Source of the DNA: Azolla caroliniana
Lineage: Eukaryota > Plantae > Polypodiophyta
DNA: 64,000 nt
Assembly (NCBI GenBank): GCA_043228905.1
Contig: JBHGNT010000010.1
Coordinates: 14,818,001 to 14,882,000 of the forward strand
Direction of reading: 5' to 3'
In this document: positions 1,801 to 62,399 of the stretch, in pieces
How the letters are laid out: the number at the start of each line of letters is the position of its first letter
How positions within the stretch are numbered: the first letter of the stretch is position 1
Program-made: the position numbers and the translations under genes
The notes under the pieces: model-generated
The model's input: the letters and a program-made list of their open reading frames with translations, nothing else
Database searches by the model: none
Told to the model about the DNA's origin: nothing

Positions 1801-2226
1801 TGTCATGATATGGCAAAACTCGAACCCATAACCTTATGTTATATGGGTCGAGCTCTTGACCATTACATTATCTATTCTAATACGTAGGATATTATTTTCA
1901 TTTAAGTTTTACTATTGAAAATTATTGTATATTCCAAATTTCTCTGGAACATTCTAGAAGCTTAAGGACTATTCCTCAGAACATTGTAAAAAGAGGCACA
2001 AGGCATTATTTTGAACCAAATTGGTTCAACGCCAGTCTTAAGCTTCATATCTATTTGTACTTACTCTTCACATAATATATCATCTGTTATCATCATTCTC
2101 TCTCTCTCTCTCTCTCTCCTTCGCTATCTCTCTCTCGTGAGTCTTACGCAATCCGTCCTCTTAGTACTAATAGTACTTCCCTTCTCTAGTACTAATTCTC
2201 TCTCTGTTTTAGTACAATTTTTGATA
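1801..2226 (+). repeat. 5' LTR of G0
   Basis: Aligns by eye to the LTR at 8100-8552. Ends TTGATA (decayed CTGACA), followed by GTTTGAAC as in the intact element. Confidence 0.8.
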
Positions 2227-4258
2227 GTTTGAACAAAAATTTTCCCTCTAGTCTTCTTTTCGGTTTCCCTCATCCTTTTACCCCTTTTTCCAATATTATG
2301 GCTACTGTTAGCGCCCAGGAATATCAATTCGTTTTTTTCGAGCTACAGTGTCTAAAAGAAAAATTCGTAGCATTGGAAGAAGAAAAGCAACGATGGTTAG
2401 GGCATCTTCAACAAATTTCTTTAGAAAAATAGCAAACGCAACAACAACATGGGGAGTTAGCGTTACATGTACAACAACTCGAAGCAACCATTGTAGCGTT
2501 ACAACAACAAGTATCAAGTCCCCAAGGACTTCATAAAGAGCCCAAGATTGGTCTTCCTGTGAAATTCGATGGAATGCGCTCACAATTTAGAGGATTCCTT
2601 AATTAGGTAAGCTTAATCATGCCAATGCATCCTTCCCGATACCCCACCGATGCATCCCGAGTAGGCCTAATAGGCATGTTGCTCAACGGCTCAGCCTTGG
2701 CATGGTTCCCTCCACTTTTGGAAAAACAATCTCCCTTGCTTAATAACTTTGAAGACGTTATTAGCGAGTTTAAAGCCTGCTTTGGAGATACCGACACCAT
2801 CAGGACGACGATCAACAAATTCCAACAATTGCGTCAAGGCGATCGTCCAGCCTCTGCCTACGTGGCGGATTTTCGACTACTCGCCTCAGATATCCCCTGG
2901 GATGATCAAGCACTAATGGAGCAGTTTTGCTATGGCCTGCGAAATAACGTCAAAGATTTACTTTTAACCTTTCCCGAAGAACCAAAATCTCTTACAGAGG
3001 CAATCAGTCAACCGATCCAATGCGACAACCGCCTTTTCGAACAACGTTCGGAACGTCAAGTTCAAATGCCACGGACTAGAGTATCCGTAGTTGCTTGTGC
3101 CCAGTGTGGCTTTGTGTAGATGGTGCCAAGTTTTTTACAAAAATCGACTTACGAGGAGCATATAACATCGTGTGGATCCGACTGGGAGACGAATGGAAGA
3201 CCGCTTTTCGCACCCGATATGGGCACTTCGAGTATACTGTTTTGCCGTTCGGTCTAACCAATGTGTCCGCAGTCTTCCAACACATGGAAAATGATATATT
3301 CAGAGATCTCTTGGATATCTGTTTGATCATCTATTTGGATGATCTATTGATTTATTCGAAGACCCAGGAGGAGCATGATGCTCATGTACTATTAGTACTA
3401 AAACGACTCTGAGAGCATGGTCTTTATGCCAAACTAGAAAAATGTAGCTTTGACTGCAAGCAAGTGGAATTTCTAGGCTACGTCATCTCCTCAAAAGGCA
3501 TTTCCATGAATCCAGCTAAAGTGAAAATTGTGCTAGAGTGGCAAACTCCACGTTCATTACGAGATGTGCAATGTTTCCTAGGCTTTGTTAACTTCTACCG
3601 CAAGTTTATACAAGATTACTCGAAGATTATTTTACCTCTCACACAGCTTACCAAGAAGGAACAATCATTTCTTTGGTCCAATGAAGCGGACATGGCTTTT
3701 ATGCAACTTAAGAAAGCCTTTACATTAGCTCCTATTCAAGCTCATGTGGATACAAACAAACCATTCATCATGGAGGCCGACACATCGGATTTTGCCCTCG
3801 GTAGCATCCTTTCACAACAAGGAGATAAAGAAAAGTTACATCTTGTTGCTTTCCACTCCCACAAATTTGATGCCACGGAAATTAACTACGAGATACATGA
3901 CAAGGAGTTATTAGCCATCATGGATTCGTTTGTGCATTGGTGGCACTTCTTAGAGGGATCTCCTCATCAGGTCACTGTCTTCAGTGATCATAAAAATCTT
4001 GCTTACTTCCAGAATGCTCGTGTACTAAATCGACGGCAAGCTCGGTGGGCCCAATTCCTCATGCATTTTGACTTCAAAATCACATATCAGCCGGGGAAGC
4101 AGCAAGGAAAAGCAAATGCACTATCGCGACGTTCATATCTTGCACCTCGTCTTGGTGATCCAACATTTGATAATCAAAAGCAAGTAATCTTGGGACCAAC
4201 ACGTTTGCACACAACGTGGATTTTTCACACTCCACTGGATTCCCGAATTATCGATCCC
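1801..4258 (+). mobile_element. Truncated, degenerate Ty3/gypsy chromovirus (G0): 5' LTR, gag relic, internal deletion, RT-RNase H relic
   Basis: LTR starts TGTCA at 1801. gag ATG at 2298 (MATVSAQEYQ) with stops. gag is joined to mid-RT at ~3118. RT YLDD and RNase H are in ORFs 3095..3412 and 3464..4264. Homologous to 8100-13839. Confidence 0.9.
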
Positions 4259-4651
4259 CGTTGAGAATCAAGCTCAACCTAGTCTAGTGTGTGAACACAC
4301 TCTTGAGAGTGTGCACTCAAAAGTCAAAAGTCACCACTCTTATCTACACATTAACTATGTGTCATAGAATCATATTCTATGACACATAACTAATGAGTTT
4401 TCATATTCCCCATGACCGATGAGCTTCGATAGTTAATGAAGAGAGAGAGTGACTATATAAAGTACTCTCCTCCTACTTTGTAATTAGGTTGATTAATCCC
4501 CTCTGTAATATACATCTTCTTGAGTATTCTATTGTCTCTCAAAAATCTATCTTTTGTTTGTCTCCTCTATCTCTCTCTCTCTCTCTCACACACACATAAC
4601 ACACATCCTTAACCTATTCCGTTGCACAAGAATCATACCCGATTCTTTACA
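4259..4651 (+). repeat. 5' LTR of the family-B copia
   Basis: (C)GTTGAGAATCAAGCTCAAC...TTTACA matches the reverse complement of the LTRs at 44038-44428 and 60364-60738. The PBS follows immediately. Confidence 0.85.
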
Positions 4652-5740
4652 TGGTATCAGAGCGGTTTGGTAGCTCGATCTAGCCCATCCGCGTGTGTTG
4701 AGCTCTACGCCGACGTTCAAGAAGAACATGCTCATCGCTATCATAGTGCGACTACATAGCTCGTATTCAAGAGAGAAGAAGGAAGAAATCTACATCGAAC
4801 ACCATGAATACTCAAATGGGGAGTGCTCTCCCTGGCGAGAAGTTGGGCCGAAACAACTTCGCATCTTGGGAGTACAAGATGCACCAATACCTTGTCAGCC
4901 AAGGCTATTGGGGTTACATCAAGGGGGCACAAGAAAACCAACCCGATCCGAAAGACGCCGACTACTCAACATGGGAGCAAGCGGTGAGTCGAGTAATGTA
5001 TTGCTTGGCGATATGTGTTCATGACCACATGCTTGGCTACATTCGAGAAGCCACAACGCCAAAGGAAGCATGGGAGAATCTAAGGAAGATATTCGCCGCC
5101 AATACAACGGCACAAAAGCTTCAACTCCGCCAAGAGTTGAACAACATCCAACAACAGGATATGTTCGTCACAAGCTACACCTTGAAGATCAAGGAGCTTT
5201 GTGATGCACTCGGATCGATAAGCGTCAATGTGGAGGATGACGAAATGGAGCAAATATGCCTCGGCGGCCTTGCACCACGATTCGGCGCTATGCGGACCGT
5301 CTTACTAGCACGAGAGAATCCACCCTCTTTCTTCGATCTTCAATGTATGTTATTGGTTGAAGAGAATCATGTTCGAACAAGGAGCAACGCCTCAGAAGGC
5401 CACATGCTCTACATGCATTAGAATGGAGGAAGAGGACGTGGCCAAGTAAGAGGCCGATTCGGCCAAGGAAGAGGCGGCGAACGAGGTCCGGCTTACGACA
5501 ACTCCCAATTTCGGCAACAAGACGGAAGCCATCAAGGAACCTTCGGAAGAAGGGGGAGCTTCCATTCCAGTTCGAGTCGACAAAACTCAATCGAATGCGG
5601 ATATTGCAGAAAAATTGGCCATCATGAAGAAGAGTGTCGGAAAAAGAAGCGCGAGTCGGCTTCCACAAGCCGACAACTCACAAATTATGCCACTAACTCT
5701 GATTATGAAGACCCTGGTGGAATGTTCATGATGAGACATT

Positions 5741-6318
5741 TATTAGGATTTTGGTCCCTCCGGATGGGATATGAGTACCCAACAACGGAAGACCCGATGA
5801 GAACCGGATGATGCAGGCTCGGTGAGAACCTCTCACCGGATGGAGGGACATATATGGAAATATGTTTCTGTTAGCCCATTGTGGCTATATTTGTAAATAG
5901 CCTGAAAGTCATATTAGTATAATTATGACCTAGGGCAAACAGAGAGTGTGTGGATGTATCATTGTGTTGTCATTAATTTGTATAGTGATATTGGTGTAAC
6001 TGTTGTACAGAGCGTAGCAAAGGGAAAGAGAGAGAGAGAGACAGAGTGAGTCTCTGTTGTAACCGCTGCCAAGCAAAGATTGTGAGCACGAGGTCGTTGC
6101 CTCTTTGTTCCCCTATTGTATTCTTCTTGCATAGTGAGAGTTGGAGTTTGTGGACTCCCGTGGTTTTTCCCATCTAGGGTTTTCCACATTAACATCCTGT
6201 GCATTCTCTTTCTGTTTGTGTAATTACTTCCATTTCCCATTTCTTCTGTGCTTGATTATCATTAACTTATCTAAGCTTTGGTTGTGGCCGAAGATTATTC
6301 CGCATATTGTTCTCAGAA
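5741..6318 (+). mobile_element. Solo LTR, Tork-like copia
   Basis: Shares GGTCCCTCCGGATGGGA, TTTGTAAATAGCC and ACTCCCGTGGTTTTTCCC blocks with LTR 51252-51966. Host gag is continuous across it. Imperfect TSD ACATT/ACATA and decayed termini. Confidence 0.75.
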
Positions 6319-8099
6319 ACATAGAGCAAATTCTATGTCGGCCTCTACTTCGACTAGTGCCTCCAATCCGGAAAGTGTATGGTTCGTCGACTCCGGTGCT
6401 TCGAACAATATGACGTCTTGTCAAGAATGGTTCTGAGACTTACGAGAGCTGGATCCATCCGGTTATGTCGAGACCGGGGATGACACCATTCATCCTATTC
6501 GACATATTGGCAATGTCCCATTCAGGGAAGACGGTGAACAAACTTGCATAAAAAATGTATTACATTTACCCACCATAACGAAGAATTTGGTCTCGGTCGG
6601 CCAAATAGTGGAGCAAGGGATGCAAGTTCGATTCAACCAAGGTGGTTGCTTCATCGAGAAGGAAGGCTGACTCATCGCTCGGGGTCAAAGGGAAGGTAGA
6701 ATGTTTATCCTCGAGTCAAACGAGGTGAAATCGGCCATGTACGCAAAGGGCCTCAAATCTGACACCGACATAGAGCTATGGCATAAAAGAATCAGCCATA
6801 TCAATCTCAACAAACTCAAGGCGATGCAATCGAAAGGAGTCGTCATCGGGCTCTTGACCTTCAAAGAGAAAGAGATTGAAGGAGTATGTGAAGCATGCCA
6901 ATTCAGCAAGCAACATCGGCACCCGTTCCCGAAGGAGAGGAACATGAGCAAAGGCCTATTGGACGTAGTCCACTCAAATGTGTGGGGACCGGCACAGACG
7001 GCTACGTTCTGAGGATGTTGGTACTATGTTACCTTCATCGACAACTTCTCTAGATACACATGGATCTTTCCCATGAGGATGAAGAGTGAAGTGTTTACAC
7101 ACTTCCAAAAATTCAAAAGCAAAGTCGAAAAGACAACTGGGCGTAAAGTACGATGTCTTTGGTCTGATGAAGGAAAGGAATACTTCTCCAATGCGTTCAC
7201 GACATACCTTTGACAAGAAGGAATTCGGCGAGAATTCACTTGCCGACACACACCACAACAGAATGGTGTAGCCGAACGCAAGAATCGGCACATCCTCGAA
7301 GTAGCAAGGGCCATGCTAAATGAGAAGCATATGCCCAAGTCATATTGGGCAGAAGCTACAAATACCGTCGTCTACCTCATGAACCGGTGCACAACATCCG
7401 GAGTGCACGAGGTCAGCCCGCACGAGAAATATTATCGGAAGAAGTCGGATCTATCCCATGTAAGGATATTTGGCTCCATTGCATACGTGCACATTCCCGA
7501 TGAGAAGCAGTAGAAGCTTGACCCAAAATCAGAGAGGTGCATCTTCGTGGGGTACTCATAGGAGCAAAAGGGGTACAAGTGCTTCAACCCCTCTACTCGG
7601 AAGACTCGTGTAAGTCGGGATGTCATCTTTGACGAATCGACATCATGGTACAAACCCGAGCCAACTCCTCCCGAACCATCTACGAACGACCTCGACAACA
7701 TAGAAGACGATGATCAACTAAGGTCAATACTCGAAGAGAGTTCGATCTCACCCAGATTGAGCGGACCACAAGAGCCTCCGTGCAACCAAAGCACATCTCG
7801 GCCAAGTCCAAAGATGGACAAAGGGAAGGCCAAAATGCCAGAATGAAGACGATCACTTTGACGGCAACGAATCGACTCCTTCACTCGATAGTGAGTTTGA
7901 TGGCTTTGATGTGCCTCTTATTAGGTCACCCAGAGTTGAGAAAGCACTCACATCGGCAAATGAGAAACTTTGTCACTCCACCCGAGAGAAGAATCTAGTT
8001 AGCTGATTCGGCTACAATGACTATTTGGCATACCACTATGCCTTTATGATGAAGGTGGCAGTAGTTAGAGAACCAGAGAGCTTTACCGAAGCCGCTAAA

Positions 8100-8552
8100 T
8101 GTCATAACTAGACTCGAACCCATAACCTTTTGTTACACGGGTCGAGACTTTACCATTAGGTTATGAATTGTAATTTGAAGGATATTATTTTCATTTAGGT
8201 TTTATTGGGAAATTGATGTATATTCCAGATTTCTCTGGAACATTCTAGAAACTTCAGGAGTATTCCTGAAGACACTATAAAAGGAGGCGCAAGGCATTAG
8301 TTCGAACCAAATCGGTTCAACGCCAGTCTTAAGCCTTCTAACTACTGTTGTATATCTTCCGTCATATAATACATATATCTTTCGCATCATCATTCTCTCT
8401 CTCTCTCTCTCTCTCACTCACTCATTCCTTCTCTCAAAGTTCGACACCTCTCATAGTACTAATCCTTCTCTGTCTTAGTACTATTCCCCAACAATAGTAC
8501 TAATCCTTCTTTTAGTACTAATTCCTTCTCTGCCTTAATAGAGTTCCTGACA
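8100..8552 (+). repeat. 5' LTR of G1
   Basis: TGTCA...TGACA, TATAAAA at 8276, repeated at offset 5287. Confidence 0.97.
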
Positions 8553-8554
8553 GT

Positions 8555-8566
8555 TTGAACCGATTT
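8555..8566 (+). promoter_or_regulatory. Self-complementary primer-binding site (Tf1-type)
   Basis: TTGAACCGATTT, 2 nt after the LTR, is the exact reverse complement of 8309-8320. No TGG-starting tRNA PBS is present. Confidence 0.8.
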
Positions 8567-8640
8567 CGACTACTAGTCTCCCTCTTCCTTCTGTCTCCCT
8601 CCTTTCCTACTAGTCTCTTATTTCCCTTTTCCTTCATCCC

Positions 8641-9810
8641 ATGGCCACCGTTAGCGCTGAAGAGTATCAATCCGTTTTCTCGGAATTTCAATGCTTGAAA
8701 GAGAAGTTTCATGCTTTGGAACAAGAAAATCAACGCTTGTTGGGGGATCTTCAGCAAATTTCCTTAGAAAAGCAGCAAACGCAACAACAGCATGGGGAAC
8801 TTGCGTTACGCGTGCAACAACTCGAAGCAACCATCGTAGCAATGCAACAACAAGGGCACGGAGCACAAGGGATTCATAAAGAACCCAAGATTGGCCTTCC
8901 CACGAAGTTCGATGGAACGCGATCGCAGTTTAGAGGGTTTCTTAACCAGGTACGGTTAGTTATTCAAATGCATCCGTCCCGATATCCCACCGATGCATCA
9001 CGAGTGGGTTTAGTAGGCACGTTGTTAAATGGCTCAGCATTAGCATGGTTCGCTCCGCTACTAGAAAAGGAATCTCCAGTACTAAATAATTTTGAAGAAT
9101 TCATAAGTGAGTTTAAAGCATGTTTTGGAGATACTGACAGCATAAGGACTGCAATCAACAAAATCCGGCGATTACGCCAAGGTGACCGTCCAGCCTCCGC
9201 ATATGCTGCAGATTTCCGCCTACTCGCCGCCGATATCCCCTGGGATGATCAAGCATTGATGGAGCAGTTCCGCTATGGTCTACGCAACGATGTCAAGGAT
9301 TTACTCTTGACTTTCCCTGAAGAGCCAAAATCATTAACAGAAGCAATCAGTCGAGCGGTCAGATGTGACAACCGCCTCTTCGAGCGACGTTCGGAACGAC
9401 AATTTCAGATGCCGAGGGCAAGATCCGAGCCTACCTATGCCTCAGTGGTAGCGAAACCTTTTCAAAGGGAGTCACATAATGCGCCTCCAGTAAGTACTCC
9501 AACTCCAATGGAAATTGACACTACACGTCGTCGTGGGCCGCTATCGGAGGAGGAAAAGCAACGACGCCGAACAAACCGATTATGCCTTTATTGCGGTGGA
9601 CCAGGGCATATCGCGATAAACTGTCCCCATAGACCAAGAAGGCAGGTAAACCAAGTCATTGTTAGTTCTGACTATACTAAACCCGAGTCTATTTCAGTAG
9701 GAATCTCTGATAATCCTCATAGTCATAATAGTCCTAATAGTACTAATAGTCCGAATCTCGCAAACAAATTTGATGTCCTTAGCCAATTAGAAGAAGAGTT
9801 AAACGACTAA
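8641..9810 (+). CDS. gag: Gag of G1 (389 aa)
   Basis: Coiled-coil-like N-terminus, EPKIGLPTKFDG capsid start, PTPMEID motif, CCHC knuckle CLYCGGPGHIAINC. Confidence 0.95.
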   Translation: MATVSAEEYQSVFSEFQCLKEKFHALEQENQRLLGDLQQISLEKQQTQQQHGELALRVQQLEATIVAMQQQGHGAQGIHKEPKIGLPTKFDGTRSQFRGFLNQVRLVIQMHPSRYPTDASRVGLVGTLLNGSALAWFAPLLEKESPVLNNFEEFISEFKACFGDTDSIRTAINKIRRLRQGDRPASAYAADFRLLAADIPWDDQALMEQFRYGLRNDVKDLLLTFPEEPKSLTEAISRAVRCDNRLFERRSERQFQMPRARSEPTYASVVAKPFQRESHNAPPVSTPTPMEIDTTRRRGPLSEEEKQRRRTNRLCLYCGGPGHIAINCPHRPRRQVNQVIVSSDYTKPESISVGISDNPHSHNSPNSTNSPNLANKFDVLSQLEEELND

Positions 9811-12800
9811 GTCCAGCCAAAATAGGAGCCGTTTGGTTGGACAGCCCTAGATCTGTGCAGCCCATTAGTGGTTCCATTCCCTCTAAGCAAGTTAGTGATG
9901 TGTTCGTAGCCCAAGTAGCAGTTAGTACTAAAAATACCCCTCCAGTACATACCTTAGCCCTTCTAGATTCCGGAGCTAATTCTTGCTTCATGGATAGGAA
10001 TTTTGCCCGAGCTCATCAGATATCTCTCAGAAAGCTCCCATGTCCAGCCTCAGTAGTAGTCATTGATGGTCGTCCCATTGCTTCTGGTAATATCATAGAA
10101 GAGTCGGAACCCGTTAATATTGTCCTAGATAACTTAACATGTGTAGTATCATTTAATATTATTAATATTCCAGAACATCCCATAGTTTTAGGATTACCAT
10201 GGTTCGAGTTACATGACCCAGACATAGATTGGAGGACAAGGGAAATCCGGTTGCGACAAACCCAAGGATCTACCCAGAAGGTTGCAACCATTTCGCTACG
10301 TCAGTTGCGTGAGGAAGGGCGCAAGGAGGAAATGTTTCTCTTTGCAATATCAGTACAACCCTCCAGCACCACCAAAGAGGAGTCCACCGTTCAACTTCCT
10401 GAGAAGTATCGTCAGTATGCTGATGTGTTCGATAAAGTACAAGCCAACACACTTCCTCATCATCGGCCGTACGACTGCGCCATCGACTTACAACCGGGAA
10501 AAGAGCCGCCATGGGGGCCGATCTACAATTTGTCACCAACCGAGCTAGAAGTCCTTCGAGCCTATATAGAGGAGAATTTGGAGAACGGTTTCATTCGGCA
10601 TTCGAAATCTCCAGCCGGCGCACCCATTTTCTTCGTCAAGAAAAAAGATGGCTCGCTTCGACTCGTTGTAGATTACCGTGGCTTGAATAAGGTCACAGTA
10701 AGAAATAGGTATGCTCTTCCCCTTATCTCAAGTCTTTTAGAACGGATCAACGGTGCCAGGTTCTTCACGAAGATCGACTTACGAGGAGCCTATAACCTCG
10801 TACGGATCCGACCAGGAGATGAATGGAAGACCGCGTTTCGCACCAGATATGGGCACTTCGAGTATACGGTCATGCCGTTCGGACTCACTAATGCGCCGGC
10901 AGTCTTCCAGCACATGGCGAATGATATATTTCGAGATCTCTTGGATGATTTTTTGATCATCTATTTGGATGATCTACTGGTTTATTCAAAGACCCAAGAA
11001 GAACATGATTCTCATGTACTATTAGTACTAAAACGACTTCGAGAACATGGTCTGTATGCAAAGTTAGAGAAATGTAGTTTCGGGTGCAACCAAGTGGAGT
11101 TTCTCGGCTATGTCATCTCCTCAGAAGGCATATCTATGGACCCAGCCAAGGTCAAAACGGTGATAGAATGGCACACTCCGCGTTCGGTGCGGGATGTGCA
11201 ATGCTTCCTAGGCTTTGCAAATTTCTACCGGAAGTTCATACAAAATTACTCAAAAATTGTGCTGCCTCTCACACAGCTCACCAGGAAGGGACAATCATTC
11301 ATTTGGTCTAAAGAGACGGACATGGCTTTCGAGAGTCTTAAGAAGGCGTTTACATCAGCTCCAATTTTAGGTCATGTGGATCCGGAAAAACCATTCATTA
11401 TCGAAGCTGATGCATCGGATTTCGCATTGGGGAGCATTCTGTCACAACAGGGTAACGACGAGAAGCTACATCCTGTGGCTTTCCACTCCCGTAAGTTTGA
11501 CGCCGCCGAAATCAACTACGAAATTCATGATAAAGAGCTATTAGCAATAGTTGATTCTTTTATGCAATGGAGGCATTTCCTGGAGGGATCTCCTCATCAG
11601 GTCACTGTATTCAGTGACCACAAGAACCTTGCCTACTTTCAAGATGCTCGTGTACTGAATCGACGTCAAGCTCGGTGGGCCCACTTCCTCACACGCTTCG
11701 ACTTCAAAATTACCTACCGTCCGGGGAAGCACCAAGGGAAGGCAGATGCATTATCACGGCGTTCGTATCTAACACCACGTCCCGGTGAGCCAGCTTTCGA
11801 TAACCAGAAGCAAGTAATCTTGGGTCCAGCACGACTGCAAGCAGCACAGGTCTTTGACATGCCCGTGGATTCCGACATTACCAATACTATACGTGAGGAC
11901 TTGAAGACTGACGCTTTCGCCCAAGCTATACTAGCACAAATTGACCCCTCTCGAGCGTCATGTTCACAATCACAATCACCAGGTACGGATTATCGGCAAT
12001 TCAAATACTGTGATGGATTACTCTTCTTTAAAGAACTTTTGTATGTTCCTAATGGTTCTTGCCGCCTTCGAGTAGTACAAAACTGCCATGACACATATAT
12101 AGCAGGACATTTTGGTAGTACTAAAACATTAGATTTAGTACAACGATCATTCTGGTGGCCCCGTATGCGACAATTTGTCGAAGATTTTGTTCGGACTTGC
12201 GATACATGCTGCAGAGCGAAAATGCCGAGACATCATCCATATGGTTTATTAGAACCATTACCAATTCCAAGCAAGCCATGGCAATCCATTGCTCTTGACT
12301 TCATTACAGATCTTCCAGTCTCTAAGGGATTCAGTGCGATTCTCACAGTGGTGGATCGATATACGAAGATGGCTCATTTCTTACCATGTACTAAAGAAAT
12401 ATCTAGTGAAGACACCGCCGAAATTGTCATGCGGGAAGTATGTCGGCATCATGGACTCCCTGATAATATCATCAGCGATCGTGGACCCCAGTTTGTGTCA
12501 AAATTCTGGAAGCACCTTTTTAAAATGCTGAAGGTCACTTGTAACCTCTCCTCCGGCTACCACCCACAAACCGACGGTCAAGCCGAACGAACAAATCAAA
12601 CACTGGAGCAGTATCTGCGGTGCTTTCTCAACTATCATCAGAATGACTGGGCAGATATTCTTCAGTTCGCCGAATTTGCCTATAATAACGCTATCCACGC
12701 ATCGACTAAAGTCACGCCATTCTACGCTTATACGGGATATCATCCCCGGTGGTGTGTCCTTGAAACCCCAGAAGTGTCTACAAATCCTTGCGCGGAGGAT

Positions 12801-13394
12801 CGTTTGGAGCGGTTACGCAAGATACAAGCGGATTTATCTACTCAACTCCAGCAAGCTCAACAATCACACAAGGACTACGCAGATCGTCATCGACTTCCAT
12901 CCAGTTTTAACATTGGAGATCGGGTGTGGCTGCTACGACGACACATCAAGACTACTCGCCCATGTGAGAAGTTGGATTATCGGCGATTAGGTCCTTTCCG
13001 TATTATCGGGAAGATTAATGATGTCGCTTTTCGTCTCGAGCTACCTCCGCAACTTCGGATACACCCGGTGTTTCATAGTTCTCTCCTCGAACCCTATCAC
13101 GAGAGCACTATCCCAGGACGTACTATACAACCTCCACCTCCTATCGAGCTCGAAGATGGACCTGAGTATGAGGTCGCTGGCATCCTCGATTCCAAGATTG
13201 TTCGCAACAAGCTCTACTATCTAGTCGATTGGCTAGGATATAGTCCCAGCGAGCGTACTTGGGAACCGATCGAGAATGTGACCAATGCTCGTGCTCTTCT
13301 AGAAGACTTCCATCGACGATATCCCGAGAAACCGGGTCCTCAATCCAAAACGACTCGTAAAACTCGTCGTTTTAAAGGGGGGATAGTGTCATAA
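9783..13394 (+). CDS. pol: Pol of G1 (protease-RT-RNase H-integrase-chromodomain), -1 frame relative to gag
   Basis: Frame is open from 9783 and overlaps the gag end. LLDSGA protease, YLDD RT, DASD RNase H, HHCC and GPF integrase motifs, chromodomain EYEVAGILD...YLVDWLGY. The stop lies inside the 3' LTR. Confidence 0.95.
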   Translation, partial: PIRRRVKRLSPAKIGAVWLDSPRSVQPISGSIPSKQVSDVFVAQVAVSTKNTPPVHTLALLDSGANSCFMDRNFARAHQISLRKLPCPASVVVIDGRPIASGNIIEESEPVNIVLDNLTCVVSFNIINIPEHPIVLGLPWFELHDPDIDWRTREIRLRQTQGSTQKVATISLRQLREEGRKEEMFLFAISVQPSSTTKEESTVQLPEKYRQYADVFDKVQANTLPHHRPYDCAIDLQPGKEPPWGPIYNLSPTELEVLRAYIEENLENGFIRHSKSPAGAPIFFVKKKDGSLRLVVDYRGLNKVTVRNRYALPLISSLLERINGARFFTKIDLRGAYNLVRIRPGDEWKTAFRTRYGHFEYTVMPFGLTNAPAVFQHMANDIFRDLLDDFLIIYLDDLLVYSKTQEEHDSHVLLVLKRLREHGLYAKLEKCSFGCNQVEFLGYVISSEGISMDPAKVKTVIEWHTPRSVRDVQCFLGFANFYRKFIQNYSKIVLPLTQLTRKGQSFIWSKETDMAFESLKKAFTSAPILGHVDPEKPFIIEADASDFALGSILSQQGNDEKLHPVAFHSRKFDAAEINYEIHDKELLAIVDSFMQWRHFLEGSPHQVTVFSDHKNLAYFQDARVLNRRQARWAHFLTRFDFKITYRPGKHQGKADALSRRSYLTPRPGEPAFDNQKQVILGPARLQAAQVFDMPVDSDITNTIREDLKTDAFAQAILAQIDPSRASCSQSQSPGTDYRQFKYCDGLLFFKELLYVPNGSCRLRVVQNCHDTYIAGHFGSTKTLDLVQRSFWWPRMRQFVEDFVRTCDTCCRAKMPRHHPYGLLEPLPIPSKPWQSIALDFITDLPVSKGFSAILTVVDRYTKMAHFLPCTKEISSEDTAEIVMREVCRHHGLPDNIISDRGPQFVSKFWKHLFKMLKVTCNLSSGYHPQTDGQAERTNQTLEQYLRCFLNYHQNDWADILQFAEFAYNNAIHASTKVTPFYAYTGYHPRWCVLETPEVSTNPCAEDRLERLRKIQADLSTQLQQAQQSHKDYADRHRLPSSFNIGDRVWLLRRHIKTTRPCEKLDYRRLGPFRIIGKINDVAFRLELPPQLRIHPVFHSSLLEPYHESTIPGRTIQPPPPIELEDGPEYEVAGILDSKIVRNKLYYLVDWLGYSPSERTWEPIENVTNARALLEDFHRRYPEKPGPQSKTTRKTRRFKGGIVS
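9798..9875 (+). promoter_or_regulatory. Putative -1 ribosomal frameshift signal (G_TTA_AAC, 6-nt spacer, pseudoknot)
   Basis: Heptamer 9798-9804 is in the gag frame. Stem 9811-9821/9832-9842. Loop 9825-9831 can pair with 9869-9875. The same layout occurs at 58417-58333 on the minus strand. Confidence 0.75.
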
Positions 13395-13839
13395 CTAGAC
13401 TCGAACCCATAACCTTTTGTTACACGGGTCGAGACTTTACCATTAGGTTATGAATTGTAATTTGAAGGATATTATTTTCATTTAGGTTTTATTGGGAAAT
13501 TGATGTATATTCCAGATTTCTCTGGAACATTCTAGAAACTTCAGGAGTATTCCTGAAGACACTATAAAAGGAGGCGCAAGGCATTAGTTCGAACCAAATC
13601 GGTTCAACGCCAGTCTTAAGCCTTCTAACTACTGTTGTATATCTTCCGTCATATAATACATATATCTTTCGCATCATCATTCTCTCTCTCTCTCTCTCTC
13701 TCACTCACTCATTCCTTCTCTCAAAGTTCGACACCTCTCATAGTACTAATCCTTCTCTGTCTTAGTACTATTCCCCAACAATAGTACTAATCCTTCTTTT
13801 AGTACTAATTCCTTCTCTGCCTTAATAGAGTTCCTGACA
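13387..13839 (+). repeat. 3' LTR of G1
   Basis: Copy of 8100-8552, preceded by the PPT. Confidence 0.97.
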
Positions 13840-14165
13840 CTAAAGATCCGCGATGGGTCGAAGCGATGAACGAGGAGATGCAAACTCTCAGCAAGAACGA
13901 GACATGGGATCTTGTCCCACACTCACACAAGAAGAAGGCAATCGGCTGCAGATGGATATACAAAGTGAAGTACAATGCCGATGGTTCCGTCAACTGCTAC
14001 AAAGCTCGACTCATGGCAAAGGGCTATGCACAAACACATGGAGTCGATTATGTAGAGACCTTTGCCCCGGTGGCAAAGATGACGACTGTGCGGATCGTGA
14101 TTGCACTTGCAGCGGCGAGAGGGTGATACCTCCACCAGATGGACGTCAAGAACGCCTTTCTTCAG

Positions 14166-14739
14166 ATTGGCGGAACATTTGAATGTCTTCCAAGGACTAA
14201 TAAATCAAACCACCTCTCTAAAAGTAACTCTTGTCGATGAGGTATTGGCATTATTGTTGTTGGGATCCTTTCTAGATAGCTGGGAAATATTGGTTGTCAC
14301 CTTGGGCAACGCCAGACCGGAAGGGAAACATTTATCCTTAGAGATGGTGAAGTCGAGCTTGCTAAATGAGGAAGCTTGCTAGAAGGACCGAGAGTCTGTA
14401 ACCAACCCAAAGGTATTTCACAATAGGTGACATGAACTGGGGGAGAGATCGGAATAGAAGTCCTCAAAATCGGGAGATGTCGAGGACGAGGTCAAAGTCG
14501 AGGGGGAGGCCCACATGATTCTATTGTGGGAAGCCAACATTTCCAAAAGAATTGTCGACACTTTCGAAAAGAGAAAGGGGGAGTTGATTGTGCAGATCTG
14601 AAGAAGAATATGGATTGTAAAAACACCTCAACGATCGCGACAAGTGAGGAGGAGTTGTTGTTGATTGGCGAACAAAACGAAGTGAACCTTGTCAACGATG
14701 AAACGACATGGGTGGTCGACTCTGGAGCGTCATTCCACC
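14166..14739 (+). pseudogene. Tork-like copia gag-protease relic fused to the family-B RT
   Basis: AEHLNVFQGLINQTTSL...LLNEEA and WVVDSGASFHL are homologous to 41670-42248. Confidence 0.8.
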
Positions 14740-48825: not shown

Positions 48826-49223
48826 GGAGCTGTCGTGACTTGAGAATAGGAGAGAGAAAAATAAGATGACAGTAGAAGGTAGAGGGAGAGAGAGAGAGAA
48901 AGAACACTAGAAATGGAAAGAGAGTTTATATTATAAGAGAGCAAGGATTACAAAGAGTAGGCTAAGGGGCTACAAACTGGTGTTGAACCGAATGAGTTGT
49001 GATGAATGAATAGACACCTATTTATAGGTCCTTATGGAGTATTCTGGAATGTTCTAGAATATTTTAGATATTTATGATATTTAATATAAACATGGAATAT
49101 CCTAGAATGTTCTAGAATACTCTTGAATGTTCTAGAATACTCTAAATGTCTTGTAATAACTAATAATACATATAGACCAAGACGTCTTGAGCTCGAATCC
49201 CTGTAAGGCCAAAATGTATGTCG

Positions 49224-51251
49224 TCATGACATTATCCCCCCTTTTCGACGACAAGCTCCATGAGTCGGAAGACAAGATTTCAGACTTGGCTTATGAGGAT
49301 ATTTGTTGTGAAATGCAGCAACCATTTCGGAGGCATTAGCAAGATTCTCAAGAGGTTCCCATGTTCGATCATTAGGTGTATAACCTAACCAGTCAACCAA
49401 ATAATACAATTTGTTGCGAACGATCTTGGAGTCGAGAATGGCAGCAACTTCATATTCGGAGCCATCCGAAATTTCGATTGGAGGTGGGGGAGATGTAAGA
49501 CGGCCTGGAATAGAGCTGGTTGTGTACGACTCCAAAAGTGAAACATGGAAGACCGGGTGAAGATGCATATGAGGGGGAAGATCAAGGCGAAATGCCACAT
49601 CATTGATCTTACTAGATATCACATATGGGCCAAAACGTTGATAATCCAATTTGCAGCAAGGTCGGGTTGTTTTAATGCGACCTTGTAAAAGCCATACTCG
49701 ATCCCCCACTTGAAACGTAGTCGATGAATCACGTCGATGACGGTCAGAAACCTTCTTTTGAGTGTTTTGAGCATCACATAAATGGTGCAAAAGGATATCT
49801 TGAACTTCTTGGAGTCGGGTGAGCCGATCTTCAGTAGCCGGGTTTGTTGGGAGTTCGGGATGTTCAAGCATAGTCCAACGAGGATGGTACCCAATGTTTG
49901 CAAAAAATGGGGAATATCCAGTAGAAGAATGTTCTGAGTTGTTGTAAGCAAATTCCGCCAAATGTAATAGATCAACCCAATCATCTTGTTGATAGTTGAC
50001 AAAACAACGAAGATATTGTTCTACTGTTTGGTTGGTGCGCTCACTCTGTCCGTTAGTTTCTGGATCGTAGCCGGAAAAGAGTTTGCAAGAAGTATGTAAG
50101 AGTTTGAACATGTGCCGCCAAAATTTTGAGATGAACTAGGGACCCCGATCACTGATAATATCATCAGGAAGACCATGATGTCGAAACACCTCTCGCATGA
50201 GTAACTCGGCTGTCTCTTGGCTCGTAATGGCCTTTGTGCAGGGAAGAAAATGTGCCATCTTGGTAAAACGATCTACTACCGTGAGAATAGAATCAAAACC
50301 CTTGGAAGGTGGTAGATCCGTAATGAAGTCCAATGAAATAGATTTCCATGGACTCTCAGGAATAGGCATTGGCTGTAATAAGCCATATGGATGATGTCAA
50401 GGTTTTTTGGATCGGCAACATGTATCACAACTACGAACATAATCCGTAACAAAATGGCGAAGTCGTGGCCACCAATACCTTCGAGAAATTAACGCCAAAG
50501 TCTTGTGGATGCCAAAATGTCCAGCCATTGGTGTATCATGACATTGTTGCAAGACTTGGAGTCGAGAAGGACCATCAGGCACATATAAGAGATTTTGTCG
50601 AAAAAGTAAACCATCATGCCAATTGAACTGGTTGTAGTCTTGATGAGGATTTTGAGATTGTGAACAAGAAGCACGATCTGGGATAATATGGCTCAGAATA
50701 TCTTGGGCGAATTCATCAGTCTCAATATGCTCCCGAATGGAGTCTAGAAGACTTGAATCCTCGGGTGTGTCTATAGCATGAAAAGCCATTAGTCGTAGAC
50801 GGTCAGGACCCAAGAGGATTTGCTTCTGACTTTCAAATGCGGCCTCTCTTGGTTGAAGTTCCATATATGAATGCCGAGATAAAGCATCTACTTTGCCTTG
50901 TTGCGTCCCAGGGCGATATAGAATTACGAAATCAAAACGAGTTAAAAACTGCGCCCAACGAGCTTGTCGATGACTCAAGACTCGAGCACTTTGGAAGTAC
51001 GTTAGATTTTTGTGATCATTATAGACAATGATTTGTTGAGACGAACCCTCCAAAAAATGACGCCATTGTTGAAAAGAATCCACAATGGCAAGAAGCTCTT
51101 TGTCGTGAATCTCATAGTTGATTTCTGCAGCTTCGAATTTCCGTGAATGAAAAGCCATAGGGTGCAGTTGGCCATCATTGCTAATCTGGGATAATACGCT
51201 TCCTAGTGCGAAGTCAGATGCATCAGCTTCCAGTATAAAGCACTTCAATGG
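49224..51251 (-). pseudogene. pol: G2 pol 3' part (RNase H-integrase-chromodomain)
   Basis: ORFs 50397..51248, 50136..50369 and 49224..50111 are homologous to G1 pol. Confidence 0.9.
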
Positions 51252-51652
51252 TGTTGGGATTTCGGTCCCTCCGGATGGGATGTCCGGAGATGAATGACGG
51301 CAAGCCCGGAGGCTGTTACCGAACCGTATGATGAAGAGTACCCGGCATGAAGCCGGATGAAGAGTACCCGGCTACGGATCCGGATGATGAAGACCCCGGT
51401 TACGGAGCCGGATGATGAAGACCCCGGTTACGGAGCCGGATGCTGAAGACCCCGGTTACGGAGCCGGATGACGTATGTACCCGGAGAGAGATCCGGATAC
51501 GGGGACATATCTGTGAATATGTTTGCCAAGGGCCCTTGAGGCTATATTTGTAAATAGCCCGAAAGTCATATATGTATAAATATGACTTAGGGCAAACAGT
51601 TTTGGTTGTTGCTCATTTTATGTTTTCAGCCGAGAGAGCGAAGTGTGAGCAG

Positions 51653-51694
<42 letters not shown>

Positions 51695-51966
51695 GAGGTC
51701 GACGCCTCTGTGTATTGCCGCCGCCTGTGGCGAAGACAGTGAGCTCAAGGTCGTTGCCTTGAAGCTTCACCATTGTACATCCCTGTTCATAGTGATAGTT
51801 GGAGTTGTGCACTCCCGTGGTTTTTCCCGTTTAGGGTTTTCCACGTTATACCCTGTGTATTCGTCTCTCGTGTCTTTCTCTGTATTTCCTATTTTCTGCT
51901 GCATTGATCCGTGTTGGCCCGGTTGTGGCCGGGAGGCGAAAGATTTGATAGCGTCAAATCTCAACA
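51252..51966 (+). repeat. 5' LTR of copia A, with 28-bp tandem repeats in U3
   Basis: TG...CA, repeated at offset 4830. GAAGACCCCGGTTACGGAGCCGGATG starts at 51389, 51417 and 51445. Confidence 0.97.
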
Positions 51967-51997
51967 ATCTGGTATCAGAGCGACGGTAACACAGAAA

Positions 51998-54900
51998 ATG
52001 GAAGGCGGCGGTAGTGGGCCTCCGGGCATGATGGTGCTGAACGCGCAGAACTACGCCGACTGGAAGATAAAGATGGAGGATCTGCTCATTGTTCGGGACC
52101 TGTATGAACCGATCGACAGGTCGGAAATACCCAAGGGGGTACTTGAGACGGAGTGGAGGCTTCTGAACCGGAAAGCCGTTGCAACCATTCGGCAATACGT
52201 CGACGTGAGCGTTCTACAACACGTGGCGAACGACACCAACGCATATGAGATGTGGAGGAAGCTGTCGGGCCTCTACGAGAGGAAGAATGCGTTGAACCGG
52301 ACCTCCCTGATGAGAAAGATTGTGAACCTCAAGTACCGGGACGGCGAGAGTATGGTGGAACACGTAAGCACGTTCATGGGATTCGTGAACCAGCTTGCGG
52401 CGATCAAGTTCCCGTTGGAGGATGCAATGCAAGCCATCATCCTGATGTGTACATTGCCGGACAGCTGGGAGAACTTGGTGGTGACTCTCAGCACCTCCTG
52501 CACGGAAGACAACTTGTCCTTACAAACGGTAAAGACGAGTATTTTGAACGAAGAAGCGCGTCGGAGAGATAAAGAACCGGCCTCCGACTCGAAGGCGCTG
52601 CTTACCGAATCGGATCGGGGAAGACAATGGAACCGGAGTCCGCAAAGACGGGAGAAGTCGGGGACCCGGTCGCAGTCAAGAGGAAGGCCCACATGCTTCC
52701 ACTGTGGGAAGCCGGGGCACTTCCGGAAGAATTGTCGGCATTACCGAAAGGACAACGGAGCCGACGACACCGATTCGAAGAAGTCACCGGAGAGAAACGG
52801 TGCATACCGGGGAGCCACGGACCGGAGAGGTCCGGATCGGCGAGGGCAGGATCGGAAAGGAACGACGGCACTCGCGGCAAGTGAAGAAGAGATAATGCTT
52901 ATTACCGAAGAGAGGGAGCTGAACCTTGCCGGTGTAGAGATGACCTGGGTGGTCGATTCCGGAGCGTCGTTCCACCTGACCCCGGAGAAGAAATACTTCT
53001 CATCCTACACAGCCGGTGAGCACGGCTGTGTCCGGATGGGAAATGAAGGCACATGCCGGATTGCCGGCATAGGAGACGTGTGGCTGATGACATCAACCGG
53101 ATGCAAGATGCTGCTGAAGGATGTGCGACACGTTCCGGAGGTCCGATTGAACCTGATCTCGGCCGGGAGGCTAGATGATGAAGGCTACACGGGTAGCATC
53201 CGGAACGGTGTCATGAAGTTCAGCAAGGGGAGCCTGATAGTGGCTCGGGCCCGGAAGGTCAACACACTGTACCTGATGAATGCCCGGTTATGTCTGGAAG
53301 AGCTGAATGTGGCAGCCGACACTGCCGGTGAGCTGTGGCACAAAAGACTGTGCCACATGAGTGAGAAGGGGATGAAGAGGCTTGCAGAAGACAACCTTAT
53401 TCCAGTGAAGCATGTGCACCTGGAGAAGTGCACCGACTGTCTGGCCGGTAAGCAAAACCGGACCTCCTTCCACTCAAGGCCACCGACGAGACGTAGCGCA
53501 CCATTGGAGTTGGTGCACACCGATGTGTGTCAGGTAGAAACGAAGTCACATGGCGGAGCCCAGTACTTCGTAACATTCATTGATGATCACAGCCGGAAGC
53601 TGTGGACGGCCCCGTTGAAGACAAAGGACCAAGTATTGTCCGTCTTCAAAGATCTCCACGCGAGAGTGGAAAGGGAATCCGGCAAGAAGCTGAAAGCGAT
53701 ACGAGCGGATAACGGAGGGGAATACCGGGGGCAGTTCCAGGAGTACTGCCGCTCGAAGGGAATCCGGCTCGAGTTTACCGTGCCGAAGACGCCGGAACTG
53801 AACGGGCTGGCCGAGAGGATGAACCGGACCATAATGGAGAGGGTCCGGAGTATGCTGGCGCATGCGAAATTACCCAAGGGATTTTGGGCTGAGGCAATGT
53901 CGACGGCGACATATGTGATAAACAGATCACCCTCAGTACCTTTGGACGGAGACACGCCGCAGAGAGTGTGGACCGGTAAGGAAGTGTCCTACCGGCATCT
54001 GAAGGTGTTCGGGTGTCTCGCATACGTGCATGTGGCAAAGGACCGGAGAGGAAAGTTAGATCCAAAGACCCGGCCATGCATATTCCTCGGTTACGGCGAC
54101 GACGAGTTCGGCTACCGAGTATGGGACCCGGTCGACAAGAAGATATTCAGGAGTCGAGACATCATCTTCATGGAGGACGAGACACTCGCCGACTGGGAGT
54201 CGGAGAAGAAGATGAAGAGCTCAAAGTCGACCGGTGAGGATCAACTCTACGAGGAGCAGTCCCGACCGGCAAGGGACCGGTTAGCACTCGAGGATCCGGC
54301 CGAAGACGGTGAAGAAACAGAACCGGCCGAAGAAGATGAAAATGATACCGGAACCGGCCCCGATCCCGAAATGGATTCGGATGAAGAAGAATCGGAAGAA
54401 CCGGTTACCGAAGCTCTGGAACGGAGATATCCTCTAAGAGAGAGAAGGGCCCCCCGGAGATTTCCGGAACCAGAGCACGTGCTGCTAACCGACGAAGGGG
54501 AGCCGGAGAGCTTTGAAGAAGCAAAGCACGACACCCAGAGCCGCAGGTGGTTGAGTGCCATGCAGGACGAGATGGATTCCCTGCATGAGAACCACACATA
54601 TGAACTTGTGGAGTTGCCGAAAGGAAAGCGGGCACTTCGAAACAAGTGGGTGTTCAAGCTGAAACCGGGAGATGCCGGAAACCCCCCGAGATACAAAGCC
54701 CGGATCGTGGTGAAGGGGTTTCAGCAGAAGAAGGGCGTCGACTTCGACGAGATATTTGCCCCGGTAGTGAAGATGACCTCCATCCGGACGGTGCTGAGCA
54801 TAGCGGCAAGCATGGACCTTGAGGTAGAACAGATGGACGTGAAGACGGCATTCCTTCACGGTGACCTCGAAGAAGAGATCTACATGCAGCAACCGGAAGG

Positions 54901-56071: not shown

Positions 56072-56081
56072 AGGGGGAGTT

Positions 56082-56482
56082 TGTTGGGATTTCGGTCCCT
56101 CCGGATGGGATGTCCGGAGATGAATGACGGCAAGCCCGGAGGCTGTTACCGAACCGTATGATGAAGAGTACCCGGCATGAAGCCGGATGAAGAGTACCCG
56201 GCTACGGATCCGGATGATGAAGACCCCGGTTACGGAGCCGGATGATGAAGACCCCGGTTACGGAGCCGGATGCTGAAGACCCCGGTTACGGAGCCGGATG
56301 ACGTATGTACCCGGAGAGAGATCCGGATACGGGGACATATCTGTGAATATGTTTGCCAAGGGCCCTTGAGGCTATATTTGTAAATAGCCCGAAAGTCATA
56401 TATGTATAAATATGACTTAGGGCAAACAGTTTTGGTTGTTGCTCATTTTATGTTTTCAGCCGAGAGAGCGAAGTGTGAGCAG

Positions 56483-56524
<42 letters not shown>

Positions 56525-56796
56525 GAGGTCGACGCCTCTGTGTATTGCCGCCGCCTGTGGCGAAGACAGTGAGCTCAAGGTCGTTGCCTTGAAGCTTCAC
56601 CATTGTACATCCCTGTTCATAGTGATAGTTGGAGTTGTGCACTCCCGTGGTTTTTCCCGTTTAGGGTTTTCCACGTTATACCCTGTGTATTCGTCTCTCG
56701 TGTCTTTCTCTGTATTTCCTATTTTCTGCTGCATTGATCCGTGTTGGCCCGGTTGTGGCCGGGAGGCGAAAGATTTGATAGCGTCAAATCTCAACA
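56082..56796 (+). repeat. 3' LTR of copia A
   Basis: Copy of 51252-51966, following the PPT. Confidence 0.97.
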
Positions 56797-59523: not shown

Positions 59524-61228
59524 AGTTGCGATAGAAAATTGCTAGATTTGGTTGAATAAGGTTAAGATAAGAAGAAGAAGTTGGAGAAGAAGAAAAGAGA
59601 TAGATTCGGTTCAAACTGTCGTGACTTGAGAATAGGAGAGAAAAATAAGATGACAGTAGAAGGTAGAGGGAGAGAGAGAGAGACAAAGAACACTAGAAAT
59701 GGAAAGAGAGTTTATATTATAAGAGAGCAAGGATTACAAAGAGTAGGCTAAGGGGCTACAAACTGGTGTTGAACCGAATGAGTTGTGATGAATGAATAGA
59801 CACCTATTTATAGGTCCTTATGGAGTATTCTGGAATGTTCTAGAATATTTTAGATATTTATGATATTTAATATAATCATGGAATATCCTAGAATGTTCTA
59901 GAATACTCTAAATGTCTTGTAAGAACTAATAATACATTTATTATAACTATACATCATATATGTTAGTACAATGGTTAAAGGTCTAACATATAGACCAAGA
60001 CGTCTTGAGCTCGAATCCTTGTAAGGCCAAAATGTATGTCATCATGACAGGAGCCGCTTCGGCGGGTCGGTCTTCATGCGTTCCTTTGATGTAGCTCCAA
60101 TAGCCTTGTCCGACAAGGTATTGGTGCATCTTGTACTCCCAAGATGCGAAGTTGTTTCGATCCAATTTCTCGGTAGGGAGAGCGCTCCCCATTTGAGTAT
60201 TCATTATGTCGATTCTTCTTCTTCTTCTTCTCTCTTCGAATGCGAGCTATGTAGCGAAGCTACAATAGCTATGAGCCGGTTCTTGGTCGTCGGCGTGGAG
60301 CACAACACACGATCACGATGAGGCGAATGGGCTAGATCGTGCTACCAAATCGCTCTGATACCATGTAAAGAATCAAGAGATGGATTCTTGTGAAGCGGAA
60401 GAGATATGAGTTATGTGAGTGTATGAGAGAGAGAGAGAGAGAGAGACAAGAAATACACAAGGTAAAAGTATATTGACAAAGGAGAAAGACTTAACATTAT
60501 ACAAGGTGGGAGGAGGGTGCTTTATGTAGTCACCCTCTCTCTTCATTAACTACAAGCCTCATGGAGCATGGGGAATGTGAAAGCTCATAAGTTATGTGTC
60601 ATAGAATATGATTCTATGACTCATACTAAATGCTAGAATACAAAGTGGTGACATAATGGTGACTCTTGACCGTTGGAGTGTCTATTCACTCTCAAGGTGA
60701 GTTCACACACTAGACCAAGTTCAGCTTGATTCTCAACAGAATTAACAGAAATCAGAAAGTTTGACAAATTTCATTAAGAAAGGAAAAGAAAAATTACAAT
60801 CTATCCCAAGCTTGGGATTGCCAAAGTTTTAGCTTATGGAGGTTGATAGGTTAAGGTTTTTGAAATATGGCTTAGATAAAAAACTAATAATTTAGGAATT
60901 ATCGAGAGATAGCTTAGATAAGAAAAATTAGGGTTTTTGAGAGATATGGCTTCCGTAAGGAAATTAGGGTTTATGGCTTCGATAAGAAAATTAGGGTTTA
61001 TTCCCCCAAAAGATGACGTCGATTGCCTAAGGACCATTAGGATCTATGGATGATTGAGAGATAACTTTTCTCCTCCCTTCTCGCACTTGCATGAGGGAAC
61101 TCCAATTTCCATCTTGAGTTCAATTGCATGCATCCACATGACCTTTACTTTACATAAAGTTTGACTTTAGTTGCATGTGTTCACATAACCTTTACTTTAC
61201 TTTACTTTAGATCGGTCGCATGATCCTA

Positions 61229-62398: not shown

Positions 62399-62399
62399 G

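What the first reader, a model, noticed from the sequence alone, without database searches (positions are those of the whole stretch)
8276..8566. tRNA-independent self-priming with a compensatory change between two chromovirus families
Seen: the G1 PBS TTGAACCGATTT (8555-8566) is the perfect reverse complement of AAATCGGTTCAA (8309-8320), which starts 33 nt after the TATA T (8276). In G2 (minus), the PBS TTGAACCGAAT (59614-59604) pairs with ATTCGGTTCAA (59779-59769), again 33 nt after TATA (59812). One primer base (A vs T) and its PBS partner change together. Both PBSs begin 2 nt (GT) after the LTR. Established: S. pombe Tf1 primes reverse transcription with the first 11 nt of its own mRNA, and this is predicted for the Tf1/sushi group. 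Inference: an intact plant element uses it. The copias here all use tRNA-iMet.
Basis: partly seen in the sequence, partly recalled or inferred. Interest (0 to 1): 0.75.

Follow-up and report, generated by a model that had tools for sequence, protein, structure and literature searches.

The report
Self-priming plant retrotransposon leaves primer footprints
A plant jumping gene has, where a transfer-RNA docking site normally sits, a 12-base match to the predicted start of its own RNA, and its genome copies carry scars at both ends of that stretch, so it likely starts copying itself from a snipped-off piece of its own RNA, a trick proven in fission yeast and already predicted in print for this group of moss elements.

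Summary
Observation confirmed: G1 (8100-13839, intact Ty3/gypsy chromovirus) has a PBS that is the perfect complement of LTR bases 8309-8320, 33 nt after TATA; G2 has the 11-nt version. Self-priming is already predicted in print for the moss Tcn1 clade (83% of 1500 elements; PMC6317226), and this scan noted it in two other moss genomes, so the mechanism is not new.

New here is genome-only evidence bracketing the primer. (1) Four primer/PBS types pair for exactly 12 or 11 bases and start at C|A (128 of 130 copies). (2) In 30 near-identical G1 copies only the 3 aligned positions right after the PBS vary. (3) 105 rearranged sites join the primer directly to reversed U5-R. Of 90 distinct ones, 20 stop within -3..+7 of the predicted cut and none at the predicted RNA start; several carry target-site duplications.

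Against or untested: host tRNA T-loops match up to 10 bases, never 11-12. Tf1's flanking 'pretzel' stems are not supported. No RNA data exist here, so start site and cleavage stay inferred. Verdict: new member of a known kind, with a reusable fossil test.

The parts
8095..8099 (+). Left target-site duplication CTAAA of G1 (right copy 13840-13844); G1 sits inside a copia element
8100..8552 (+). G1 5' LTR, 453 bp, TG...CA, 100% identical to the 3' LTR
8276..8282 (+). TATA box, 33 nt before the primer's first base
   Evidence: same spacing in 130 of 131 copies kept
8309..8320 (+). Predicted self-primer (first 12 nt of the RNA; predicted start 8309 at C|A, predicted cut between 8320 and 8321)
   Evidence: start and cut inferred, not measured
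8553..8554 (+). GT spacer between LTR and PBS
8555..8566 (+). PBS, perfect complement of 8309-8320
8567..8569 (+). Hypervariable junction just 3' of the PBS (43-50% minor states in 30 copies; all other positions from -7 to +30 invariant)
8641..9810 (+). gag ORF, 389 aa (Retrotrans_gag, Ty3_capsid, weak CCHC)
9783..13394 (+). pol ORF in the -1 frame: PR, RT (YLDD), RNase H, integrase, chromodomain with aromatic-cage residues
13374..13383 (+). Polypurine tract
13387..13839 (+). G1 3' LTR, with a second copy of the primer sequence at 13596-13607
59617..60049 (-). G2 5' LTR (TATA 59812; 11-nt primer 59779-59769)
59604..59614 (-). G2 PBS, 11 nt, after GT
48831..49231 (-). G2 3' LTR; TSD GCTCC
1801..4260 (+). 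G3, a decayed third relative with the type II primer at 2018-2029 and a decayed PBS at 2229

Best explanation
G1 is an intact Ty3/gypsy chromovirus whose PBS is the exact complement of LTR bases 8309-8320, and it likely primes reverse transcription as yeast Tf1 does: the RNA is predicted to start at 8309, its first 12 bases would fold onto the PBS, and the element's own RNase H would cut after base 12 to free the primer. Shown by sequence and copies: the complementarity, its sharp 12- or 11-base end, four matched primer/PBS types, a variable junction starting right after the last paired base, and rearranged integrated copies in which the primer is extended on the PBS and stops at the predicted cut. 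Inferred: the start site, the RNA fold in the particle, the cut and the enzyme that makes it. Also inferred: that plus-strand DNA copies the 12-base primer, runs off its end, adds untemplated bases and so scrambles the three positions after the PBS.
For: Perfect 12-nt match, 0 of 20,000 shuffles; the fold pairs primer with PBS (mean pair probability 0.85-0.95 in 16 family representatives). Watson-Crick pairs at PBS position 12 in 90 of 90 twelve-base copies, falling to 12 of 90 at position 13; at position 11 in 40 of 40 eleven-base copies, falling to 2 of 40 at position 12; the primer begins at C|A in 128 of 130. Position 10: T:A 85, A:T 44, mismatch 2. Position 8: G:C 95, A:T 26, mismatch 10. 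By cluster majority 19 of 20 (position 10) and 17 of 20 (position 8) are matched, and both states occur in both main gag clades. Junction: 18 different next-4-base strings in 30 G1 copies, versus 3 in 22 copia copies. Fossils: 105 sites, control pattern 0; 20 of 90 end at R -3..+7, 0 at -14..-4, about 15 times the per-base rate along U5-R. TSDs: exact in 6 of 17 fetched, one mismatch in 4 more; exact in 4 others read by hand. Nearest named RT-RNase H relatives are fungal and vertebrate (55-63% for amphibians, fish, Ustilago, Lyophyllum) ahead of seed plants (43-52%).
Against: No start-site or cDNA data could be had. The two extra duplexes that Tf1 needs (bioRxiv 10.1101/2022.12.06.519325, passages) are not supported: best p 0.06 upstream and 0.17 downstream in 16 representatives. 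The position-8 change is C>T plus G>A at a CpG, so methylation decay could mimic part of it; 10 of 131 copies are mismatched there. The primer's last 7 bases equal the tRNA T-loop motif, and host tRNAs match up to 10 bases. Pairing at PBS positions 1-7 is partly built in by my search anchors. 15 of 90 fossils run through the primer site into U3 and cannot tell a cut from an uncut template; 55 stop early in U5-R. A similar fold-back unrelated to the primer exists (L092). The copia control also shows a 1-base indel after its PBS in 5 of 22 copies. Copies are related, so the per-copy Fisher p values are not valid as tests.
Confidence: 0.92

Rival explanations
1. A host tRNA fragment ending in the T-loop primes on the PBS, and the LTR match is a captured or coincidental copy.
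For: Host tRNA-Gln(TTG), tRNA-Val and tRNA-Thr genes share 10 bases and a tRNA-Tyr gene 9 bases, ending at the T-loop, with one or another primer type. Half-tRNA priming exists in some copia lineages (PMC6317226 passages).
Against: No tRNA among 54 distinct ARAGORN calls matches 11 or 12 bases, while the LTR matches all of them in all four types; the PBS lacks the TGG needed for a tRNA 3' end. Four types would need several different tRNAs. An uncut RNA would put near-terminal jumps at R -11, where 0 of 35 copies still extending end. The tRNA set is incomplete: 30 of 62 RF00005 hits and 30 of 63 pattern hits were fetched.
Confidence: 0.04
2. The primer comes from the element's own RNA, but from the 3' LTR copy or from an RNA that starts at the apparent cut (8321), so there is no 12-base capped primer.
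For: Fossil junctions carry U3 in front of the primer, and two have the PPT before that U3 (L217; L347), so priming from a long upstream strand does happen sometimes.
Against: In normal copies the PBS ends after 12 (or 11) bases and is followed by variable bases, not by reversed U3 (98 of the first 100 sites keep the 12 bases, and only 4 of them continue into reversed U3). 8309 is at C|A, 33 nt from TATA, whereas 8321 is 45 nt away. That 33 nt and a pyrimidine-purine step fit plant starts is recalled knowledge.
Confidence: 0.03
3. The pile-up of fossil ends marks a block, such as the primer site paired to a second RNA's PBS or a small hairpin, or DNA-level switching between the two short inverted repeats, rather than a cut.
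For: A 12-bp duplex of -14.5 kcal/mol could stall RT; strands that reach the RNA start could fold back and be scored as 'beyond'.
Against: The local hairpin is weak (-1.7 and -3.4 kcal/mol). A plain inversion between the repeats would end at R -11, and none does. TSDs place formation before integration. This rival still needs primer-PBS pairing; it disputes only the cleavage reading of the fossils.
Confidence: 0.15

Closest known systems
Plant Tcn1-clade chromoviruses (REXdb; Neumann et al. 2019, PMC6317226: passages and Additional file 5 row read; Additional file 1 too large to read)
   Same: Chromodomain with aromatic cage, overlapping gag and pol frames, 5-bp TSD, 5.74 kb (listed range 5466-9444 bp), no tRNA PBS, self-primer in the 5' LTR predicted for 83% of 1500 elements.
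   Different: In the passages read the prediction rests on a 10-bp or longer complement found by blastn, with no start-site, covariation or product evidence. Per-element primers may be in the file I could not read.
Tf1/Tf2 of Schizosaccharomyces pombe, Tj1, Tosmo1-3 (PMC7175516, PMC4600332, PMC5341516, bioRxiv 10.1101/2022.12.06.519325: passages; primary Levin papers not held)
   Same: PBS just after the 5' LTR is complementary to the start of R; chromovirus; predicted cut right after the paired stretch.
   Different: Primer is 12 bases in three of four types here (11 in Tf1); no support for the two flanking duplexes of the 'pretzel'; two ORFs in a -1 arrangement; start and cut are measured in Tf1 but only inferred here.
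SM-Tcn1 of Selaginella moellendorffii (Novikova et al. 2010, PMC2864245: passages)
   Same: Same clade anatomy: about 5.7 kb, 440-bp LTRs, two ORFs, chromodomain.
   Different: The authors found evidence for neither tRNA priming nor self-priming there; here the self-primer is plain.
RLG1 of Physcomitrium patens (PMC7466625: passages)
   Same: Abundant, chromodomain-bearing gypsy family of a moss, with young copies.
   Different: Identity with RLG1 was not tested; the passages searched say nothing on its PBS.

Membership tests
Ty3/gypsy chromovirus | PR-RT-RH-IN order with C-terminal chromodomain, LTRs, PPT, TSD | tested here: met
Tcn1 clade (plant Tf1/sushi group) | Group I chromodomain with aromatic cage | tested here: met
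   Y at the domain start and W..Y in WLGY read; definition from PMC3350952 passages
Tcn1 clade (plant Tf1/sushi group) | RT-RH-IN phylogeny with Tcn1 references | tested here: inconclusive
   No named Tcn1 reference was available. Named relatives by identity are fungal and vertebrate ahead of seed plants (best 120 of 7860 listed), which fits but is not a tree.
Tcn1 clade (plant Tf1/sushi group) | Host is a moss or club-moss | not tested
   Host unnamed; inferred only from element type and earlier notes
Tcn1 clade (plant Tf1/sushi group) | gag overlapping pol, 5-bp TSD, 5.5-9.4 kb | tested here: met
   against the Additional file 5 row
Tf1-type self-priming | PBS complementary to a 5' LTR stretch at the start of R, not to a tRNA 3' end | tested here: met
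   (tRNA set incomplete)
Tf1-type self-priming | The complementary stretch is the 5' end of the RNA | not testable with these tools
   No raw RNA reads; indirect support from TATA spacing, C|A and the junction boundary
Tf1-type self-priming | Cut of the RNA right after the paired stretch | tested here: inconclusive
   Fossil ends pile at -3..+7 of the predicted cut and not at the start: supportive but indirect
Tf1-type self-priming | Two flanking duplexes (three-duplex 'pretzel') | tested here: not met
   No flanking duplex beat doublet shuffles in 16 representatives. A crude test that could miss short stems; so it works like Tf1 but is not shown to use Tf1's full structure.
Tf1-type self-priming | Dependence on the element's RNase H | not testable with these tools
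   Domain present; activity untested

The most novel reading that the evidence does not exclude
These plant elements self-prime with a bare 11-12 bp duplex, without Tf1's flanking stems, and the host genome keeps a readable record of the reaction: scrambled bases mark the primer's 5' end, and about a hundred integrated mis-primed products mark the RNase H cut. Primer ends of any abundant LTR family could then be mapped from assemblies alone, and mis-priming by a U3-containing strand would be a recurrent source of integration-competent rearranged elements.
Probability: 0.55. Interest if true: 0.58.

Novelty: new member of a known kind. Interest (0 to 1): 0.42.

Why it matters
Self-priming has been proven in fission yeast. 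For plants my literature searches found only a prediction from complementarity. The copies here give product-level traces of both primer ends, name the exact bases to test (8309 and 8320/8321), and suggest a genome-only assay for priming mode that could be tried on other predicted self-primers such as the TAR copia lineage. It also bears on the proposed fungal link of Tcn1 elements. The mechanism itself is not new.

Tried and rejected
RNA evidence: no RNA holder listed; four contig sets were laid and cannot show a start; no conclusion drawn.

tRNA priming: no 3'-end match and at most 10 internal bases.

Pretzel stems: not supported.

Cap copying as the source of the first variable base: in the 30 G1 copies it is T 17, C 8, G 5 (tallied), so there is no clear C bias.

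Plain DNA inversion between primer and PBS: no fossil ends at R -11.

L092 first looked like a priming fossil but switches at another short inverted match; it was not counted.

Rows dropped: 4 of 135 LTR-PBS records with truncated or decayed PBS; 8 of 30 copia loci failed the anchor; 6 of 35 gag stretches were too short or unmatched for the tree. Of 105 fossil sites, 100 were listed and 93 fetched; 3 exact duplicates were removed (L202, L207, L208), leaving 90.

Literature: nine searches listed no paper title or abstract start that reports an experimental test of plant self-priming or these fossil junctions. Most listed papers were not opened, and the primary Tf1 papers (Levin 1996, Lin and Levin 1998, Atwood-Moore 2006, Esnault and Levin 2015) were not held, so absence from print is not established. 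Additional file 1 of PMC6317226 could not be read and may list these primers.

Full report
1. Observation. G1 spans 8100-13839 with 453-bp LTRs that are 100% identical, a 5-bp TSD (CTAAA), a polypurine tract, an open gag (8641-9810) and an open pol in the -1 frame (9783-13394) carrying PR, RT, RNase H, integrase and chromodomain. After the 5' LTR come GT and the 12-nt PBS, the perfect complement of 8309-8320. None of 20,000 LTR shuffles gave 12 bases. G2 (60049-48831, minus, TSD GCTCC) has the 11-nt version but is broken and holds a nested copia. A decayed third relative, G3, starts at 1801. Folding the leaders pairs primer and PBS.

2. Families in the genome. From loci fetched by similarity and by pattern I extracted 135 LTR-PBS records in 22 clusters and kept 131 in 20 clusters. 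Four matched types occur: AAATCGGTTCAA, AAATTGGTTCAA, AATTCGGTTCAA (12 nt) and ATTCGGTTCAA (11 nt), each with its complement as PBS. Pairing stops sharply: 90 of 90 at position 12 against 12 of 90 at 13 in the long types, and 40 of 40 at position 11 against 2 of 40 at 12 in the short type. The primer starts 33 nt after the TATA T, at C|A in 128 of 130. Position 10 is T:A in 85, A:T in 44 and mismatched in 2; position 8 is G:C in 95, A:T in 26 and mismatched in 10. On a gag tree of 29 copies both states of both positions occur in both main clades (support 100/100; midpoint root for drawing only; LTR-gag recombination not excluded). Caveats: the PBS side was chosen by my patterns, the primer's last 7 bases were part of the anchor, copies are related, and position 8 is a CpG. 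A matched change is also what recopying of the PBS from the primer would give (inference), so it supports self-priming without showing two selected mutations.

3. Footprint of the primer's 5' end. Among the 30 best G1 copies no position from 7 before the PBS to its end, and none from +16 to +30, varies, while positions 13-15 carry 43-50% minor states and 18 different four-base strings. In 27 older G2 copies the peaks are at 12 and 14, again starting right after the last paired base, over a higher background. A tRNA-type copia control shows 3 strings in 22 copies, including a 1-base indel. Tf1 RT is reported to add untemplated bases strongly (PMC3185545 and PMC3035444, passages). The likely cause is plus-strand DNA running off the primer's end, adding bases and being extended after transfer. 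A mutation hot spot at this step is known for retroviruses (recalled), so the footprint marks where the copied primer ends, not by itself what the primer is. Its coincidence with the end of LTR complementarity in both the 12- and the 11-base families is the point.

4. Footprint of the cut. Some sites read U3, primer, AC, then reversed U5-R. A pattern for this junction finds 105 sites, control 0; 93 were fetched and 90 are distinct. With R+1 as the first base after the predicted cut, 55 reversed stretches end early (some because my references are distant), 20 end between -3 and +7, none between -14 and -4 where an uncut RNA would end, and 15 run on into U3. The per-base ending rate in the 11-base window is about 15 times that along U5-R, and this holds for matches above 85% and 90% identity; the window was chosen after seeing the data. 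The G1-family cases jump to different internal places, some through 2-4 bases of microhomology. TSDs flank many: 6 exact and 4 with one mismatch among 17 fetched, 7 undetermined; L160, L054, L178 and L172 were exact. So they were made before integration. The simplest reading (inference) is that a U3-containing strand, either PPT-primed plus DNA or the RNA's 3' LTR copy, annealed to a PBS, copied U5-R to the template's 5' end, and jumped. That end lies at the predicted cut. A stall at a paired primer site is the remaining alternative.

5. Rival primers. The PBS lacks TGG. Its partner ends in the T-loop motif, so I searched for tRNA T-arms. The best matches are 10 bases (tRNA-Gln, Val, Thr), never the full 11 or 12; the set is incomplete. 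The three-duplex structure that Tf1 needs was not supported in 16 representatives; the leaders are pyrimidine-rich and largely open, which may leave the central duplex unopposed (inference).

6. What is known. Neumann et al. 2019 state that most moss and club-moss Tcn1 elements lack a tRNA PBS and are predicted to self-prime (passages; 83% of 1500 in Additional file 5). Tf1's 11-base primer and RNase H cut between bases 11 and 12 are summarised in PMC7175516 (passages). Novikova et al. 2010 found no primer in SM-Tcn1 (passages). G1's aromatic-cage chromodomain, overlapping ORFs, size and TSD fit Tcn1, and its named RT-RH relatives are fungal and vertebrate before seed plants; no tree with Tcn1 references could be built. 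Two earlier notes of this scan reached the same verdict in other moss genomes; they are not independent support. Nine literature searches listed nothing on the two footprints or on an experimental plant test, with the limits given under Tried and rejected.

7. Verdict. Real, and very likely Tf1-type self-priming (0.92), but already predicted for this clade: a new member of a known kind. The added value is the pair of genomic footprints that bracket the primer and fix the bases to test, plus the apparent lack of flanking stems. Interest 0.42.

Noticed in passing
window 9797-9803: GTTAAAC in the gag frame (G_TTA_AAC) just before the gag stop, inside the gag/pol overlap: a candidate -1 frameshift site (likeness to an arterivirus slippery site is recalled).
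   Followed up: no
window 8314-8323 and 59774-59765: The primer end plus the start of R reads GGTTCAAC(G/A)C, a match to the tRNA T-loop / B-box consensus (recalled), conserved in all families; it could be a captured T-arm or a TFIIIC site.
   Followed up: partly
L178 (G000:C4:19610139), L172 (C3:10420962), L352: Tiny head-to-head LTR-only elements with their own TSDs, made of U3-primer plus a reversed LTR.
   Followed up: partly
L168, L207, L208: One rearranged junction is present as identical 680-base copies on two contigs, so a mis-primed product seems to have been propagated.
   Followed up: no
L107 (G000:C2:12269921), L051, L059: Tandem LTRs; in L107 a shortened PBS joins the PPT-U3 junction, like a mis-aimed plus-strand transfer.
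   Followed up: no
window 51252-56797: Copia with 716-bp identical LTRs and a 1387-aa open frame nested in G2; several copies elsewhere are 99-100% identical.
   Followed up: partly
window 4260-14170: G1 is nested in a copia element that itself follows the decayed G3; the window is a stack of nested LTR elements.
   Followed up: partly
L283-L284, L290-L291, L300, L338-L342: Clusters of near-identical nuclear tRNA-Lys, tRNA-Ile(TAT) and tRNA-Val-like genes, several degenerate.
   Followed up: no
window 61026-62736 and 61700-61905: A 204-nt inverted pair (94%) and a 25/50-nt tandem array inside the LTR-like region at the window's end.
   Followed up: no
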